Of a stretch of DNA of 64,000 nucleotides, positions 33,801 to 42,800 are shown in pieces. Position numbers: made by a program. Where the stretch lies: NCBI RefSeq assembly GCF_032191835.1, contig NC_083239.1, forward strand, positions 56,854,001-56,918,000, written 5' to 3'. Positions within the stretch are counted from its first letter, which is position 1. Every line of letters begins with the position of its first letter. This DNA comes from Heteronotia binoei (taxonomy: Eukaryota).

Positions 33801-36800
33801 GGGCCGCGGGTGGGATGCGCTTGGCTGGGCTGGGGCAGCTGCCTTCCTGGGGCGCCCGAAGCATCCCTCTGGCCGCGGGGGCTTGTGGGAAACTCCCTGA
33901 CCTCAGCGCGGGGATTCCCCTCGCCTCTTCCCGCCCCTCCTGGAAACAGCGAGAGGCGCCGGCCAATCTGGGAGCTCGAGCGCAGCCCGCGGAGTCCCGC
34001 CCCGGCCAACCCACGCTTCCCCGGCAGCAGCGGCGACCAATCAGCGCCCGCCATCCCAGCAGGAAAAACAACTGCCATGGAAACAGAGCCAGCAGCCCAG
34101 CCCCGCCTCCTGCCCTGCCTGCCGACCCGCCCAGCAGCAGCCGCCGAAGACGGGGAGGAGGAGGACGGGCGTCTGGCGCTTGCTCTGCCCGCCCTGGGGG
34201 CTGCGGGGCCCGGCTTCGTCCCGGTCTTTCAGGTGCACAGCCCCTGCCCCCAGCCTAAGAGCACGCAAGGAGGAGCCATGGTGGGTCAGCCCATACAACA
34301 CCCCCCCCCCCGCGCCCCCAGCACCCAGAAGACGGAGCACCCCTGCCCCACACGGGAGACCATGAGAGAAGCCACGTTGGATCAGCCCGGCGGCCCCTCC
34401 AGACCGACACTCTCTGCCCCCCCAGAAGCACCAAGACATACAGAGCACGCCTGCCCCACACTAGGAATGTAAGAGAAGCCACGTTGGATAAGCCCACTGG
34501 CCACTCCAGTACAACACACTGCCCCCCAAGCACCAAGACATACAGAGCACCCCTGCCCCACACTAGGAATGTAAGAGAAGCCACGTTGGATAAGCCCACT
34601 GGCCACTCCAGTACAACACACTGCCCCCCCAAGCACCAAGACATACAGAGCACGCCTGCCCCACACTAGGAACATAAGTGAAGCCACGTTGGATCAGCCT
34701 AGTAGCCCCTCTAGTACAATACTCTCTGCCCCCGCCCCCAAGCACCAAGACATACAGAGCACCTCTGCCCCACACTAGGAACATAAGTGAAGCCACGTTG
34801 GATAAGCCCACTGACCCCTCCAGTAAGTGAAGCCACGCCTGCCCCACACTAGGAACATAAGTGAAGCCACGTTGGATCAGTCCAGTGGCCCCTCCAGTAC
34901 AACACTCTGCCCCCTCCCCCAAGCACGAAGACATACAGAGCACCCCTGCCCCACACTAGGAATGTAAGAGAGGCCATGTTGGATCACCCCAGTGGCCCCT
35001 CCAGTTGAATTCTCTGCCCCCCCAAACACCAAGACATACAAAGCACCCCTGCCCCACACTAGGAATGCAAGAGAAGCCACGTTGGATAAGCCCACTGGCC
35101 ACTCCAGTACAACACTCTCTGCCCTCCAAGCACCAAGACATACAGAGCACGCCTGCCCCACACTAGGAATGTAAGAGAAGCTACGTTGGATAAGCCCACT
35201 GGCCCCTCCAGTACAACACTCTGCCCCCTCTCCCAAGCACGAAGACATACAGAGCACCCCTGCCCCACACTAGGAATGTAAGAGAAGCTACGTTGGATAA
35301 GCCCACTGGCCCCTCTAGTACAACACTCTCTGCCCCCCCAAGCACCAAGACATACAGAGCACCCCTGCCCCACACTAGGAATGTAAGAGAAGCCACGTTG
35401 GATCAGTCCAGTGGCCCCTCCAGTACAACACTCTGCCCCCTCTCCCAAGCACGAAGACATACAGAGCACCCCTGCCCCACACTAGGAATGTAAGAGAAGC
35501 TACGTTGGATAAGCCCACTGGCCCCTCTAGTACAACACTCTCTGCCCCCCCAAGCACCAAGACATACAGAGCACCCCTGCCCCACACTAGGAACATAAGT
35601 GAAGCCACGTTGGATAAGCCCACTGGCCACTCCAGTACAACACACTGCCCCCCAAGCACCAAGACATACAGAGCACGCCTGCCCCACACTAGGAACATAA
35701 GTGAAGCCACGTTGGATCAGCCTAGTAGCCCCTCTAGTACAATACTCTCTGCCCCCGCCCCCAAGCACCAAGACATACAGAGCACCTCTGCCCCACACTA
35801 GGAACATAAGTGAAGCCACGTTGGATAAGCCCACTGACCCCTCCAGTACAACACTCTCTGCCCCCCCAAGCACCAAGACATACAGAGCACTCCTGCCCCA
35901 CACTAGGAATGTAAGAGAAGCCACGTTGGATAAGCCCACTGGCCACTCCAGTACAACACACTGCCCCCCAAGCACCAAGACATACAGAGCACCCCTGCCC
36001 CACACTAGGAATGTAAGAGAAGCCACGTTGGATAAGCCCACTGGCCACTCCAGTACAACACACTGCCCCCCCAAGCACCAAGACATACAGAGCACGCCTG
36101 CCCCACACTAGGAACATAAGTGAAGCCACGTTGGATCAGCCTAGTAGCCCCTCTAGTACAATACTCTCTGCCCCCGCCCCCAAGCACCAAGACATACAGA
36201 GCACCTCTGCCCCACACTAGGAACATAAGTGAAGCCACGTTGGATAAGCCCACTGACCCCTCCAGTACAACACTCTCTGCCCCCCCAAGCACCAAGACAT
36301 ACAGAGCACTCCTGCCCCACACTAGGAACATAAGTGAAGCCACGTTGGATAAGCCCACTGGCCACTCCAGTACAACACTCTGCCCCCCCAAGTACCAAGA
36401 CATACAAAGCAACCCCGCCCCACACTAGGAATGTAAGAGAAGCCACGTTGGATAAGCCCACTGGCCACTCCAGTACAACACACTGCCCCCCCAAGCACCA
36501 AGACATACAGAGCACCCCTTCCCCAAACTAGGAACATAAGTGAAGCCACGTTGGATAAGCCCACTGACCCCTCCAGTACAACACTCTCTGCCCCCCCTCC
36601 AAGCACCAAGACATATAGAGCACTCCTGCCCCACACTAGGAATGTAAGAGAGGCCATGTTGGATCACCCCAGTGGCCCCTCCAGTACAACACTCTCTGCC
36701 CCCCCAAGCACCAAGACATACAGAGCACCCCTGCCCCACACTAGGAATGTAAGAGAAGCCACGTTGGATAAGCCCACTGGCCACTCCAGTACAACACACT

Positions 36801-39800: not shown

Positions 39801-42800
39801 CCAAGACATACAGAGCACCCCTGCCCCACACTAGGAACATAAGTGAAGCCACGTTGGATCAACCCAGTGGCCCCTCCAGTCCAACACTTTCTGCCCCCCA
39901 AGCACCAAGACATACAGAGCACCCCTGCCCCACACTAGGAACATAAGTGAAGCCACGTTGGATCAACCCAGTGGCCCCTCCAGGCCCACACTCTCTGCCC
40001 CCCAAGCACCAAGACATACAGAGCACCCCTGCCCCACACTAGGAACATAAGTGAAGCCACGTTGGATCAACCCAGTGGCCCCTCCAGTCCAACACTCTCT
40101 GGCCCCCACGCACCAAGACATACAGAGCACCCCTGCCCCGCACTAGGAACAAGAGAAGCCATGTTGGATCAGGTTAGTGGCCCCTCCAGTGCAATACTCT
40201 CTGCTCCCCCAAGCGCCAAGACATACAGAGCACCCCCGCCCCACACTAGGAACATAAGTGAAGCCATGTTGGATCAGCCCAGTGGCCCCTCCAGTACAAC
40301 GCTCTCTGCCCCCCCACGCACCAAGACATACAGAGCACCCCTGCCCCGCACTAGGAACATAAGGGAAGCCACTTTGGATAAGCCCACTGGCCACTCCAGT
40401 ACAACACTCTGCCCCCCAAGCACCAAGACCTATAGAGCACGCCTGCCCCACACTAGGAATGTAAGAGAAGCCGCATTGGATAAGCCCACTGCCCACTCTA
40501 GTACAACACTCTCTGCCCTCCAAGCACCAAGACATACAGAGCACGCCTGCCCCACACTAGGAACATAAGAGAGGCCATGTTGGATCACCCCAGTGACCCC
40601 TCCAGTCCAACACTTTCTGCCCCCCAAGCACCAAGACATACAGAGCACCTCTGCCCCACACTAGGAACATAAGAGAGGCCATGTTGGATCACCCCAGTGA
40701 CCTCTCCAGTCCAACACTCTCTGCCCCCTCAAGCACCAAGACATACAGAGCACCGCTGCCCCACACTAGGAAATTAAAGGAAGCCATGTTGGATCAGCTC
40801 AGTGGCCCCTCCAGTCCAACACTCTCTGCCCCCTCCCCCAAGCACCAAGACATACAGAGCACCCCTGCCCCACACTAGGAAATTAAAAGAAGCCACGTTG
40901 GATAAGCCCACTGGCCCCTCTAGTACAACACTCTCTGCCCCCCCAAGCACCAAGACATACAGAGCACCCCTGCCCCACACTAGGAACATAAGTGAAGCCA
41001 CGTTGGATCAACCCAGTGGCCCCTCCAGGCCCACACTCTCTGCCCCCCAAGCACCAAGACATACAGAGCACCCCTGCCCCACACTAGGAACAAGAGAAGC
41101 CATGTTGGATCAGGTCAGTGGCCCCTCCAGTGCAATACTCTCTGCTCCCCCAAGCGCCAAGACATACAGAGCACCCCTGCCCCACACTAGGAACATAAGT
41201 GAAGCCACGTTGGATCAACCCAGTGGCCCCTCCAGTCCAACACTCTCTGCCCCCCAAGCACCAAGACAAACAGAGCACCCCTGCCCCACACTAGGAACAT
41301 AAGTGAAGCCATGTTGGATCACCCCAGTGGCCCCTCCAGTCCAACACTCTCTGCCCCCCCAAGCACCAAGACATACAGAGCACCCCTGCCCCACACTAGG
41401 AAATTAAAAGAAGCCACGTTGGATAAGCCCACTGGCCCCTCTAGTACAACACTCTCTGCCCCCCCAAGCACCAAGACATACAGAGCACCCCTGCCCCACA
41501 CTAGGAACATAAGTGAAGCCACGTTGGATCAACCCAGTGGCCCCTCCAGGCCCACACTCTCTGCCCCCCAAGCACCAAGACATACAGAGCACCCCTGCCC
41601 CACACTAGGAACAAGAGAAGCCATGTTGGATCAGGTCAGTGGCCCCTCCAGTGCAATACTCTCTGCTCCCCCAAGCGCCAAGACATACAGAGCACCCCTG
41701 CCCCACACTAGGAACATAAGTGAAGCCACGTTGGATCAACCCAGTGGCCCCTCCAGTCCAACACTCTCTGCCCCCCAAGCACCAAGACAAACAGAGCACC
41801 CCTGCCCCACACTAGGAACATAAGTGAAGCCATGTTGGATCACCCCAGTGGCCCCTCCAGTCCAACACTCTCTGCCCCCCCCAAGCACCAAGACATACAG
41901 AGCACCCCTGCCCCACACTAGGAACAAGAGAAGCCATGTTGGATCAGGTCAGTGGCCCCTCCAGTGCAATACTCTCTGCTCCCCCAAGCACCAAGACATA
42001 CAAAGCCCTCGTGCCCCACACTAGGAACATAAGAGAAGCCATGTTGGATCAGCCCAATGGCCCCTCCAGTCCAACACTCTGTACATACAGTGGCCAGTAA
42101 ACCCAGGGGCCCCCAAGAGGTCCATCAGTGGGGCCAGGACACTAGAAGTCCTCCCACTGTGCCCCCTAAGCACCCAGAAGACAGAGCATGCCTGCCCCAG
42201 ATGTAAGACCATGAGAGAAGCCATGTTGGATCAGCCCAGTGGCCTCTCCAGTCCAACACTCTCTGCCCCCCCAAGCACCAAGACATACAGAGCATCCCTG
42301 CCCCACACTAGGAACATAACTGAAGCCATGTTGGATCAGCCCAGTGGCCCCTCCAGTCCAACACTCTTCCAAACCCAGGGGCTATCAGGAGGTGTATTGT
42401 GTGTTTGTGGGGGAGAACTCTAGAAACCCTCGCACTGTCCCACGCCCCCGAGCACCAAGAGGACAGAGCATCCGTGGTCCAGACATGATTTATTTCTTTA
42501 CTGGTCTTGCTTCAGTTCTGGCGGATTGGGACCTAGGTTGGGGTTTGAGCAATCTAACAAACGAAATGAGACCTTGCTGGGCTGGGCCATGTGTGTAGCT
42601 ATTTAAAATTAGGTCGCATAGATATAAACGTTATAAAGAACATGCACAAACATAATTAAATATATATAAACCTGCTTAAAACATTAGCATTCATTGTTCT
42701 TAAAGGTGCTTTCTTTGTATTTCTTTCCTGGGATCCAGGGAACTGGGCGAAGGAAGCTCTGGCTCTTTCCTTCCTTCCCCGGGGGATAAGAAGGGGGAGG

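What the first reader, a model, noticed from the sequence alone, without database searches (positions are those of the whole stretch)
34310..42365. 8-kb minisatellite built from an internally deleted CR1 3'UTR, with its parent copy and higher-order repeats
The 104-bp unit fuses the CR1 terminal about 60 nt to a segment about 100 nt upstream. The undeleted version is preserved at about 42025-42200. Variant units recur in blocks: offset 521 bp (identical ORF peptides at 40883/41404 and 41084/41605, a 5-unit block) and 419 bp (35701/36120, a 4-unit block). This looks like higher-order repeat structure forming. The array sits between the BBC3 CpG island and the CCDC9 promoter and could affect methylation or spacing between them (inference).
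Basis: partly seen in the sequence, partly recalled or inferred. Interest (0 to 1): 0.65.

Follow-up and report, generated by a model that had tools for sequence, protein, structure and literature searches.

The report
CR1-tail minisatellite between two gene promoters
An 8-kb stretch between two genes consists of about 79 head-to-tail copies of a shortened tail of a CR1 jumping gene, a neat but ordinary example of a mobile-element fragment growing into a tandem repeat.

Summary
About 34229-42475 is one tandem array. I cut it into 77 units, mostly 102-105 bp, plus degenerate edge units. Every unit aligns to the 3' ends of three CR1-type LINE copies elsewhere in the window, and those copies are tied to a reverse-transcriptase ORF. 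A 185-bp undeleted unit lies at 42007-42191, and a second long form lies at 42294-42475. The short unit lacks about 80 nt of them. The block duplications are real: 526 bp are exact at offset 521 and 262 bp are exact at offset 419. Dimer, tetramer and pentamer domains are also present. The unit ends at the same base as the other CR1 copies and restarts about 23 nt after the ORF2 stop, which is a tail-to-internal junction.

My best reading is a 5'-truncated CR1 3'UTR that became a tandem, lost an internal piece, and expanded in place by unequal exchange, with no shown function. A CCDC9-family exon lies to the right (Pfam, E = 1.1e-27). The BBC3 label rests only on a BH3-like motif, because two database searches found nothing. 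Tandem repeats derived from mobile elements are already described, including ones from SINEs in squamates and from CR1 in chicken. This is a new member of a known kind, of low to moderate interest.

The parts
34229..34341 (-). Degenerate left-edge units: a partial unit plus 'u00'. They are the oldest-looking units at the tail-side end of the array.
   Evidence: Read. The left-edge unit at 34318-34422 matches the right-edge unit at 42169-42273 in 90 of 103 positions. That is more than either matches any interior unit (maximum 86-87).
34342..42006 (-). 74 short units (u01-u74), mostly 102-105 bp. Each is the CR1 tail (about 62 nt) joined to the first about 43 nt of the repeated 3'UTR part. The CR1 sense strand is the window's - strand.
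   Evidence: The + strand is C- and A-rich (GC skew about -0.35, AT skew +0.33 to +0.41).
42007..42191 (-). Long unit u75 (185 bp). It is the undeleted form and carries the about 80 nt missing from the short units.
   Evidence: Alignment. It aligns to the CR1b 3'UTR at 77/111 and 73/85 columns, and to the CR1a tail at 65/73.
42192..42293 (-). Short unit u76, lying between the two long forms. It is of the edge type.
42294..42475 (-). Innermost long form (u77 and its extension). It is a 5'-truncated CR1 3'UTR that ends in unique flank at about 42475.
   Evidence: Read. It aligns to the proximal CR1b 3'UTR at 52 of 72 columns.
40835..41881 (.). Exact tandem duplication of a 5-unit (521-bp) block, u64-u68 = u69-u73.
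   Evidence: 526 bp at 100% identity at offset 521. In u64-u73, lag-5 identity is 0.998 against 0.89-0.91 at lags 1-4.
35648..36328 (.). 4-unit (419-bp) periodic domain within u13-u20.
   Evidence: 262 bp at 100% identity at offset 419. Lag-4 identity is 0.971 against 0.86-0.89 at other lags.
37762..39816 (.). Two dimer (about 207-bp) domains, u34-u44 and u47-u53.
   Evidence: In u47-u53, lag-2 identity is 0.966 against 0.80 at lag 1. In u34-u44 it is 0.945 against 0.893.
34426..36267 (.). Dispersed block duplication: 34426-34825 is nearly identical to 35868-36267.
   Evidence: 400 bp at 99.75% identity, offset 1442.
21775..22600 (-). Reference copy CR1a. It has the ORF2 C-terminal 241 aa, a stop at 21875-21877 and a 3' tail. 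It shows that the tail motif is the end of a LINE.
   Evidence: Its tail matches u75 at 89% over 73 nt.
17068..19295 (-). Reference copy CR1c. It has a tail at 17068-17134, an N run at 17135-17298 (left unfilled) and a 613-aa ORF with a reverse-transcriptase domain at 17457-19295.
   Evidence: RVT_1 E = 7.6e-29. 168/186 residues are identical to the CR1a ORF tail. Homologues are listed.
51700..53105 (+). Reference copy CR1b. It runs from the ORF2 end to the tail and gives the whole 3'UTR, but is split by a 1.1-kb insertion.

Best explanation
The array is a tandem repeat derived from a mobile element and formed in place. A CR1-type LINE inserted on the - strand and was 5'-truncated to little more than its 3'UTR (about 185-190 nt). 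This fragment became a head-to-tail tandem whose junction joins the exact CR1 3' terminus to a point about 23 nt after the ORF2 stop.

Three routes to the first tandem are possible: consecutive insertion into the same tail, a template jump of the reverse transcriptase, or unequal exchange across the insertion's short flanking repeat. I cannot tell which one acted.

One unit then lost about 80 internal nucleotides between two similar short motifs. The resulting 104-bp unit was amplified to about 75 copies by unequal exchange or replication slippage, acting on one, two, four or five units at a time. Older unit types were left at both edges.

Shown here: the CR1 origin, the deletion, the junction and the block duplications. 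Inferred: the order of events, the molecular mechanism, and that the array is selectively neutral and methylated, lying as a CpG-poor block between two CpG islands.
For: CR1 origin. BLASTN with the long forms finds 10 matches at five places outside the array. Two of these places (CR1a, CR1c) lie next to LINE ORF2 sequence. That sequence is a 613-aa ORF with RVT_1 at E = 7.6e-29, whose tail is 90% identical (168/186) to the 241-aa ORF that ends just before the CR1a tail. Two further places are the two halves of CR1b, which also runs into the ORF2 end.

Homology search. 6497 of the 8000 scored candidates reached E <= 1e-10. The best hit is 82% identical and carries RT plus two endonuclease Pfam domains. 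The named hits among the 120 listed are almost all from birds and turtles.

Unit structure. The long unit tiles the CR1b 3'UTR in order. All 77 units match both CR1 pieces.

Junction. The unit's CR1 part ends at the base where 3 of 3 other copies meet their different flanks. At most 3-4 nt of other sequence follow before the 3'UTR restarts.

Deletion. The breakpoints lie at CTCTGT and CACTGT on the + strand.

Growth in place. Similarity to the CR1 tails rises toward the end that holds the long forms (rho 0.48 and 0.53). The two edges resemble each other more than they resemble any interior unit. Identity falls with distance between units, with 0 of 1000 permutations as negative.

Block duplications. 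Interleaved clades in the unit tree.

Precedent. Tail-to-internal tandems of non-LTR elements arising by double insertion are described in PMC5932611 (abstract and section 7 read). Squamate SINE-derived satellites with a longer terminal unit are described in PMC10702118 (abstract, Background and Discussion read).
Against: No curated repeat library was available, so 'CR1' rests on relatives and tail features and not on a named consensus. No source uses the name CR1.

The predicted tail hairpin is weak. Only 2 of 5 folded tails beat most shuffles (3 and 10 of 200 shuffles fold as well). The other three do not (58, 60 and 199 of 200).

No target-site duplication was found at the array ends; the longest shared word between the flanks is 7 nt and lies out of register.

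A short unit (u76) lies between the two long forms. A simple 'one deletion, then growth at one end' history does not explain this.

In-place origin could not be checked against the rest of the genome.

Exact 526-bp and 262-bp repeats could also arise from assembly error.

Neutrality is an assumption. No expression, methylation or population data were available.
Confidence: 0.85

Rival explanations
1. The unit comes from a SINE, or from a short non-autonomous element made only of the CR1 3'UTR, and not from the LINE itself. It would then be a SINE-derived satellite of the kind described in squamates.
For: [quoted passage not shown] The innermost long form and the repeated long unit start at nearly the same CR1 position, as expected if a short element of fixed length were the source. 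The window holds other arrays that look SINE-derived.
Against: 3 of 3 dispersed copies of this tail in the window continue into ORF2 sequence. No tRNA-like head lies beside the array; the five Rfam tRNA matches are all at 13.5-14.3 kb. The long unit covers about 185 nt of LINE 3'UTR.
Confidence: 0.08
2. The array is one locus of a dispersed satellite family that arose elsewhere and was copied here.
For: Satellite families often occupy many loci, and squamate SINE-derived satellites do (PMC10702118).
Against: Both long forms sit at the CR1-internal edge. Similarity to CR1 rises toward that edge. The edge units are of an older type than the interior units. These patterns are expected for growth in place.
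Confidence: 0.1
3. Part of the fine structure (the exact 526-bp and 262-bp duplications, the array length, the poly-C lengths) is an assembly or base-calling artefact.
For: Exact multi-unit repeats inside an 8-kb array are hard to assemble. Unit length varies largely through a C run of 4-9, which is a typical homopolymer error site.
Against: Units differ enough to anchor reads: mean pairwise identity is 0.85. The other block repeats are near-exact, not exact (98.9-99.75%). There are no N runs in the array.
Confidence: 0.1
4. The array is a functional element, for example a length-variable spacer, a boundary or a binding-site cluster between the two promoters.
For: It lies within 0.1-0.6 kb of CpG-rich sequence on both sides and is itself CpG-poor. 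Strong strand asymmetry gives G runs on the - strand: 55 long-loop G4-type motifs when loops of up to 25 nt are allowed.
Against: None of the window's 3 CTCF-like matches lies in the array. There is only 1 p53 half-site, in the long unit, and no full site. There are only 1 canonical G4 motif with loops <= 7 and 4 with loops <= 12. No Rfam match lies in the array. Unit divergence of about 15% and a CpG deficit look like unconstrained, methylated repeat DNA.
Confidence: 0.06

Closest known systems
SINE-derived satellites (sSats) of squamate reptiles (Vassetzky et al. 2023, PMC10702118; abstract, Background and Discussion read)
   Same: A retroposon fragment is amplified in tandem. A longer terminal unit reaches the element's terminus. 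Dimeric or trimeric alternation of monomers occurs. Homogenisation is incomplete.
   Different: Here the source is the 3'UTR of the LINE itself and not a SINE. That paper does not mention CR1 (0 occurrences in the listing). Its supplementary figures could not be opened.
Chicken HinfI tandem repeat containing CR1 (Li and Leung 2006; seen only as cited in the text and table of review PMC9659126)
   Same: A tandem repeat whose unit includes the CR1 3'UTR.
   Different: According to the review, that unit also contains part of ORF2. Here the unit is 3'UTR only, with an internal deletion. I did not see the original paper.
Tail-to-internal tandem dimers of non-LTR retrotransposons in Drosophila (McGurk and Barbash 2018, PMC5932611; abstract and section 7 read)
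   Same: The junction joins the element's 3' end to an internal, 5'-truncated position. The dimer serves as a seed for array expansion.
   Different: Those are mostly dimers seen in populations. Here there are about 79 units, and whether double insertion was the start is not shown.
Higher-order repeats of centromeric alpha satellite (recalled, from no call)
   Same: Multi-unit blocks are more alike than neighbouring units.
   Different: Here the blocks have 2-5 copies, occupy parts of an 8-kb euchromatic array and differ in period (2, 4 and 5 units).

Membership tests
CR1 LINE (source of the unit) | Endonuclease and reverse transcriptase in ORF2 (as stated in PMC8665684) | tested here: met
   RVT_1 at E = 7.6e-29 in the 613-aa ORF next to a tail copy. 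No endonuclease was found in the four upstream ORFs of that copy. The best relative (82% identical, 982 aa) carries PF00078, PF14529 and PF03372.
CR1 LINE (source of the unit) | 3' hairpin upstream of the tail (PMC4316615, PMC8665684) | tested here: inconclusive
   A hairpin pairing the two arms around the loop is predicted in 2 of 5 tails (z = -2.3 and -1.7; 3 and 10 of 200 shuffles fold as well). The other three are no better than shuffles.
CR1 LINE (source of the unit) | 8-nt microsatellite at the 3' end, ATTCTRTG in nearly all avian CR1 (PMC8665684) | tested here: inconclusive
   3 of 3 dispersed copies end in about 1.6 copies of an octamer, read on the + strand as TAAGAACATAAGA. The octamer differs from the avian one.
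CR1 LINE (source of the unit) | Clusters with named CR1 references and not with L2, RTE or L1 | not testable with these tools
   No Repbase or Dfam library was available and no source name says CR1. The named relatives among the 120 listed are almost all bird and turtle proteins at 37-71% identity. The papers read say CR1 dominates in those groups (PMC4316615).
Tandem repeat derived from a transposable element | Head-to-tail array whose unit aligns to part of a dispersed element | tested here: met
Tandem repeat derived from a transposable element | Edge unit continuous with the element (longer terminal unit) | tested here: met
   Long forms lie at 42007-42191 and 42294-42475.
Higher-order repeat array | Blocks of n units are more alike than the units within a block, repeated along the array | tested here: inconclusive
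   This is met locally: pentamer 0.998, tetramer 0.971, dimers 0.945-0.966 against 0.80-0.91 at other lags. Each domain has only 2-5 block copies and the periods differ. Array-wide lag means differ little (0.857-0.874).
Satellite DNA in the strict sense | Many long arrays, heterochromatic location, high copy number | not testable with these tools
   Only one 64-kb window was available and no genome of this organism could be searched.

The most novel reading that the evidence does not exclude
In this lineage, LINE tails may be a regular seed of tandem arrays, as the LINE counterpart of the SINE-derived satellites of squamates. The start would be template jumping or re-insertion at the CR1 tail. 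This particular array would then be a length-variable, methylated spacer that sets the distance and chromatin boundary between two CpG-island promoters, one of them probably that of a pro-apoptotic BH3-only gene. A second, independent array from a related LINE tail 13 kb away (55079-56606) hints at recurrence.
Probability: 0.15. Interest if true: 0.45.

Novelty: new member of a known kind. Interest (0 to 1): 0.25.

Why it matters
The locus keeps several stages of satellite birth side by side: the truncated element, the undeleted tandem unit, the deleted unit, and the first multi-unit blocks. That makes it a clear teaching case and a possible marker of variable length. It does not change what is known about how mobile elements turn into tandem repeats. 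Its position beside two CpG islands would matter only if array length were shown to vary and to affect the neighbouring genes.

Tried and rejected
BLAST self-comparison of the array returned only the self-hit. I replaced it with a diagonal scan of my own.

Pfam on the 241-aa CR1a ORF tail gave nothing. The link to a LINE came from the 613-aa ORF instead.

Three regular-expression searches for a BH3 motif found nothing because the patterns were too strict. The motif was found by reading ORFs.

Pfam gave no PUMA-family hit on the three candidate BBC3 ORFs at E <= 10. The BH3 ORF found 0 relatives among longer proteins (2899 candidates scored) and 0 in the representative library. I did not search the 'near' or 'shorter' length classes.

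There is no target-site duplication at the array ends. The array has no p53 response elements, no CTCF-like motif, few canonical G4 motifs and no Rfam family.

The longest stop-free frames in the array are 273, 265 and 234 codons. I take them as by-products of a unit near 105 = 35 x 3 nt, and I did not search them.

The MAFFT alignment of CR1 pieces with the long units was poor, so I used pairwise alignments.

Comparison with a curated repeat library was also not possible.

Nothing in the window was taken for human.
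Full report
WHAT IS THERE. Tandem Repeats Finder reports a 105-bp period with 69.7 copies, 88% matches and score 10333 at 34834-42080. Shorter edge arrays lie at 34315-34825 and 42162-42367. Across 35-42 kb the + strand is strongly C- and A-rich (GC skew about -0.35, AT skew +0.33 to +0.41). Shared 14-mers peak at offsets 104, 207, 412, 419, 521 and 1442. Anchoring on a conserved motif gave 77 units. Their lengths are 104 (19 units), 103 (16), 105 (15), 102 (9), 107 (5), 109 (4), 106 (3), 101 (2), and single units of 74, 94, 95 and 185 nt. 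Degenerate units continue left to about 34229, and the last unit continues right to about 42475. The window's two N runs (17135-17298 and 63648-63792) lie outside the array and were left as they are.

SOURCE OF THE UNIT. BLASTN with the two long forms gave 182 matches, 10 of them outside the array, at five places.
- CR1a: at 21775 the match is followed on the - strand by a 241-aa ORF (21875-22600) whose stop lies just before the tail. Pfam finds nothing in that ORF.
- CR1c: the CR1a ORF is 90% identical (168 of 186 residues) to the end of a 613-aa ORF at 17457-19295 (-). That ORF carries RVT_1 at E = 7.6e-29. It lies beside a third tail copy at 17068-17134, separated from it by an N run.
- CR1b: this copy, on the + strand, runs from the ORF2 end (about 51700) to the tail (53101) and is split by a 1.1-kb insertion.

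In the homology search with the 613-aa ORF, 6497 of the 8000 scored candidates reached E <= 1e-10. The best hit is 82% identical and 982 aa long, with RT and two endonuclease domains. The named hits among the 120 listed are almost all bird and turtle 'reverse transcriptase domain-containing' proteins. According to the passages I read in PMC4316615, CR1 is the dominant element in birds and turtles. No source uses the name CR1 and no repeat library was available, so the clade assignment is well supported but not formal.

The tail features named in PMC8665684 were tested with mixed results. A hairpin is predicted in 2 of 5 tails. All three dispersed copies end in about 1.6 copies of an octamer that differs from the avian ATTCTRTG.

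ANATOMY OF THE UNIT. In CR1 sense (the window's - strand) the 185-nt long unit u75 (42007-42191) aligns in one order to the CR1b 3'UTR. The start and middle match at 77 of 111 columns, and the terminal part at 73 of 85. It matches the CR1a tail at 65 of 73. Its first aligned base lies about 23 nt after the ORF2 stop of CR1b.

The short unit keeps the first about 43 nt and the last about 62 nt and lacks about 80 nt between them. On the + strand the breakpoints fall at CTCTGT and CACTGT. The exact breakpoint is therefore ambiguous by a few bases, as expected for slippage or microhomology-mediated deletion (inference).

All 77 units match the three CR1 tail pieces at 58-90% of the reference length and the proximal piece at 59-84%.

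THE JUNCTION. The CR1 part of each unit ends at the base where the three dispersed copies meet their three different flanks. After at most 3-4 other bases the 3'UTR restarts. This is the tail-to-internal junction that McGurk and Barbash describe for non-LTR elements and attribute to consecutive insertion (PMC5932611, section 7).

The innermost long form (42294-42475) stops matching CR1 within a few bases of the point where the repeated units begin. The repeated unit therefore equals the whole original insertion. That fits a template jump, re-insertion of a short RNA, or unequal exchange across a short flanking repeat. I could not separate these, and I found no target-site duplication.

GROWTH. 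Mean pairwise identity of units is 0.85. Identity at lags 2, 4, 5 and 9 was reached by 0 of 2000 shuffles of unit order. Identity falls with distance between units (rho -0.19; 0 of 1000 permutations as negative).

Ungapped diagonal scanning found 11 repeats. They include:
- 526 bp at 100%, offset 521 (40835-41360 = 41356-41881)
- 262 bp at 100%, offset 419 (35648-35909 = 36067-36328)
- 400 bp at 99.75%, offset 1442
- 357 bp at 98.9%, offset 412

Local lag profiles show four domains:
- a pentamer domain, u64-u73: 0.998 at lag 5 against 0.89-0.91 at other lags
- a tetramer domain, u13-u20: 0.971 against 0.86-0.89
- a dimer domain, u47-u53: 0.966 against 0.80
- a dimer domain, u34-u44: 0.945 against 0.893

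A FastTree of the units gives supported clades whose members are interleaved along the array, for example u47/49/51/53 and u30/35/39/41. These are local multi-unit duplications, not an array-wide higher-order repeat.

POLARITY AND AGE. Similarity to the CR1 tails rises toward the end that holds the long forms (rho 0.48 and 0.53). The left-edge unit and the right-edge unit match in 90 of 103 positions, more than either matches any interior unit (maximum 86-87). The difference is small. It agrees with shared diagnostic bases and with expansion from the interior that pushed older units outward. A derived CATG-to-CACG change is present in 48 of 77 units: 37 of 45 in u01-u45 and 11 of 32 in u46-u77. 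The three CR1 copies have CATG. A short unit (u76) between the two long forms is not explained by the simplest history.

CONTEXT. Of 150 stop-to-stop ORFs between 22.6 and 45.3 kb, two hit Pfam. Both hit DUF4594, the CCDC9-family domain, on the + strand: 44972-45253 at E = 1.1e-27, and 44358-44792 at E = 4.5e-4, which is below the family cut-off.

On the - strand at 30431-30466 there is a BH3-like motif, LGARLRLLGDRF. No Pfam family matched the three candidate ORFs. The BH3 ORF found nothing among longer proteins or in the representative library. The BBC3 label therefore rests on the motif and on gene order recalled from mammals. A weak ThiF match at 22898-23128 (+), E = 0.0025 and below cut-off, would fit SAE1.

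CpG observed/expected is 0.14-0.25 in the array. It is 0.62-0.71 at 29.5-34.2 kb and 0.58 at 43.0-44.5 kb. This pattern fits a methylated repeat between two unmethylated islands (inference). Whether the array is intergenic or lies in a first intron cannot be told without transcript data.

TESTS FOR FUNCTION. The array holds 1 p53 half-site (in u75) and no full site. None of the window's 3 CTCF-like matches lies in the array, with 2.1 expected by chance. There are 1 G4 motif with loops <= 7, 4 with loops <= 12 and 55 with loops <= 25 on the - strand. No Rfam match lies in the array. Nothing here argues for a function.

KNOWN KIND. Tandem repeats derived from mobile elements are well documented. 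Those I saw are:
- SINE-derived satellites with a longer terminal unit in 56 squamate genomes (PMC10702118; abstract, Background and Discussion read)
- a chicken tandem repeat containing the CR1 3'UTR and part of ORF2 (cited in review PMC9659126, passages and table; original not seen)
- satellites derived from retrotransposon tandem repeats in a plant (PMC7004042; search listing only)

My searches did not turn up a description of CR1-3'UTR-only arrays in squamates. These were word searches of an open-access library, and the supplements of PMC10702118 were closed, so this is not evidence that none is in print.

The same window holds other arrays that look element-derived. They include a 134-bp array at 55079-56606 whose unit is about 70-73% identical to the same CR1 tails. 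The process therefore appears common in this genome.

VERDICT. This is a new member of a known kind. Interest is low to moderate.

Noticed in passing
window 55079-56606: A second tandem array of 134-bp units, 11.5 copies, 91% matches, with a 396-bp (3-unit) period. Its unit is a related LINE tail in + sense, about 70-73% identical to the CR1 tails at 17.1, 21.8 and 53.0 kb. Further single copies lie at 10023-10129 and 57159-57228.
   Followed up: partly
window 13484-14339: Five tRNA-like sequences on the - strand at about 140-220 nt spacing (about 210 nt between the last three) (Rfam tRNA, 33-59 bits; ARAGORN calls two of them tRNA-Thr). They lie inside 137- and 210-bp tandem repeats. It looks like a tandemly repeated SINE head.
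   Followed up: partly
window 47454-48076, 60029-60232, 50039-50505, 60288-62719: Two further unit types recur as arrays in both orientations. A 104-bp unit occurs as 6 copies at 97% and 2 copies in reverse. A 79-bp unit occurs as 5.9 copies and 31 copies in reverse. Their source was not examined.
   Followed up: no
window 51907-53024: The CR1b 3'UTR is split by an insertion of about 1.1 kb that ends in an A-rich run. The insertion is flanked by the same 16-nt A-rich word on both sides. Its 275-aa ORF (52249-53073, -) has no Pfam hit. By recall it resembles the C-terminal end of an L1-type ORF2.
   Followed up: partly
window 30096-31217 (-): Candidate BH3-only gene in very GC-rich sequence. 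There is a BH3-like motif at 30431-30466 and a possible start 'MARPLPDG...' in the ORF 30285-31217. No Pfam hit and no relative in two large searches.
   Followed up: partly
window 33960-34230: Two CCAAT-box-like words (about 33964 and 34038) and an ATG at 34078 lie just left of the array. The open frame from that ATG runs into the first units. It could be a promoter and first exon or could be chance.
   Followed up: no
window 34342-42397: The C run inside the units varies from 4 to 9 (7 in 31 units, 6 in 21, 5 in 15). This accounts for much of the unit-length variation and may partly be homopolymer error.
   Followed up: no
window 21836-21870: CR1a lacks most of its 3'UTR. About 130 nt are replaced by a short AC-rich filler between the tail and the ORF2 stop.
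   Followed up: no
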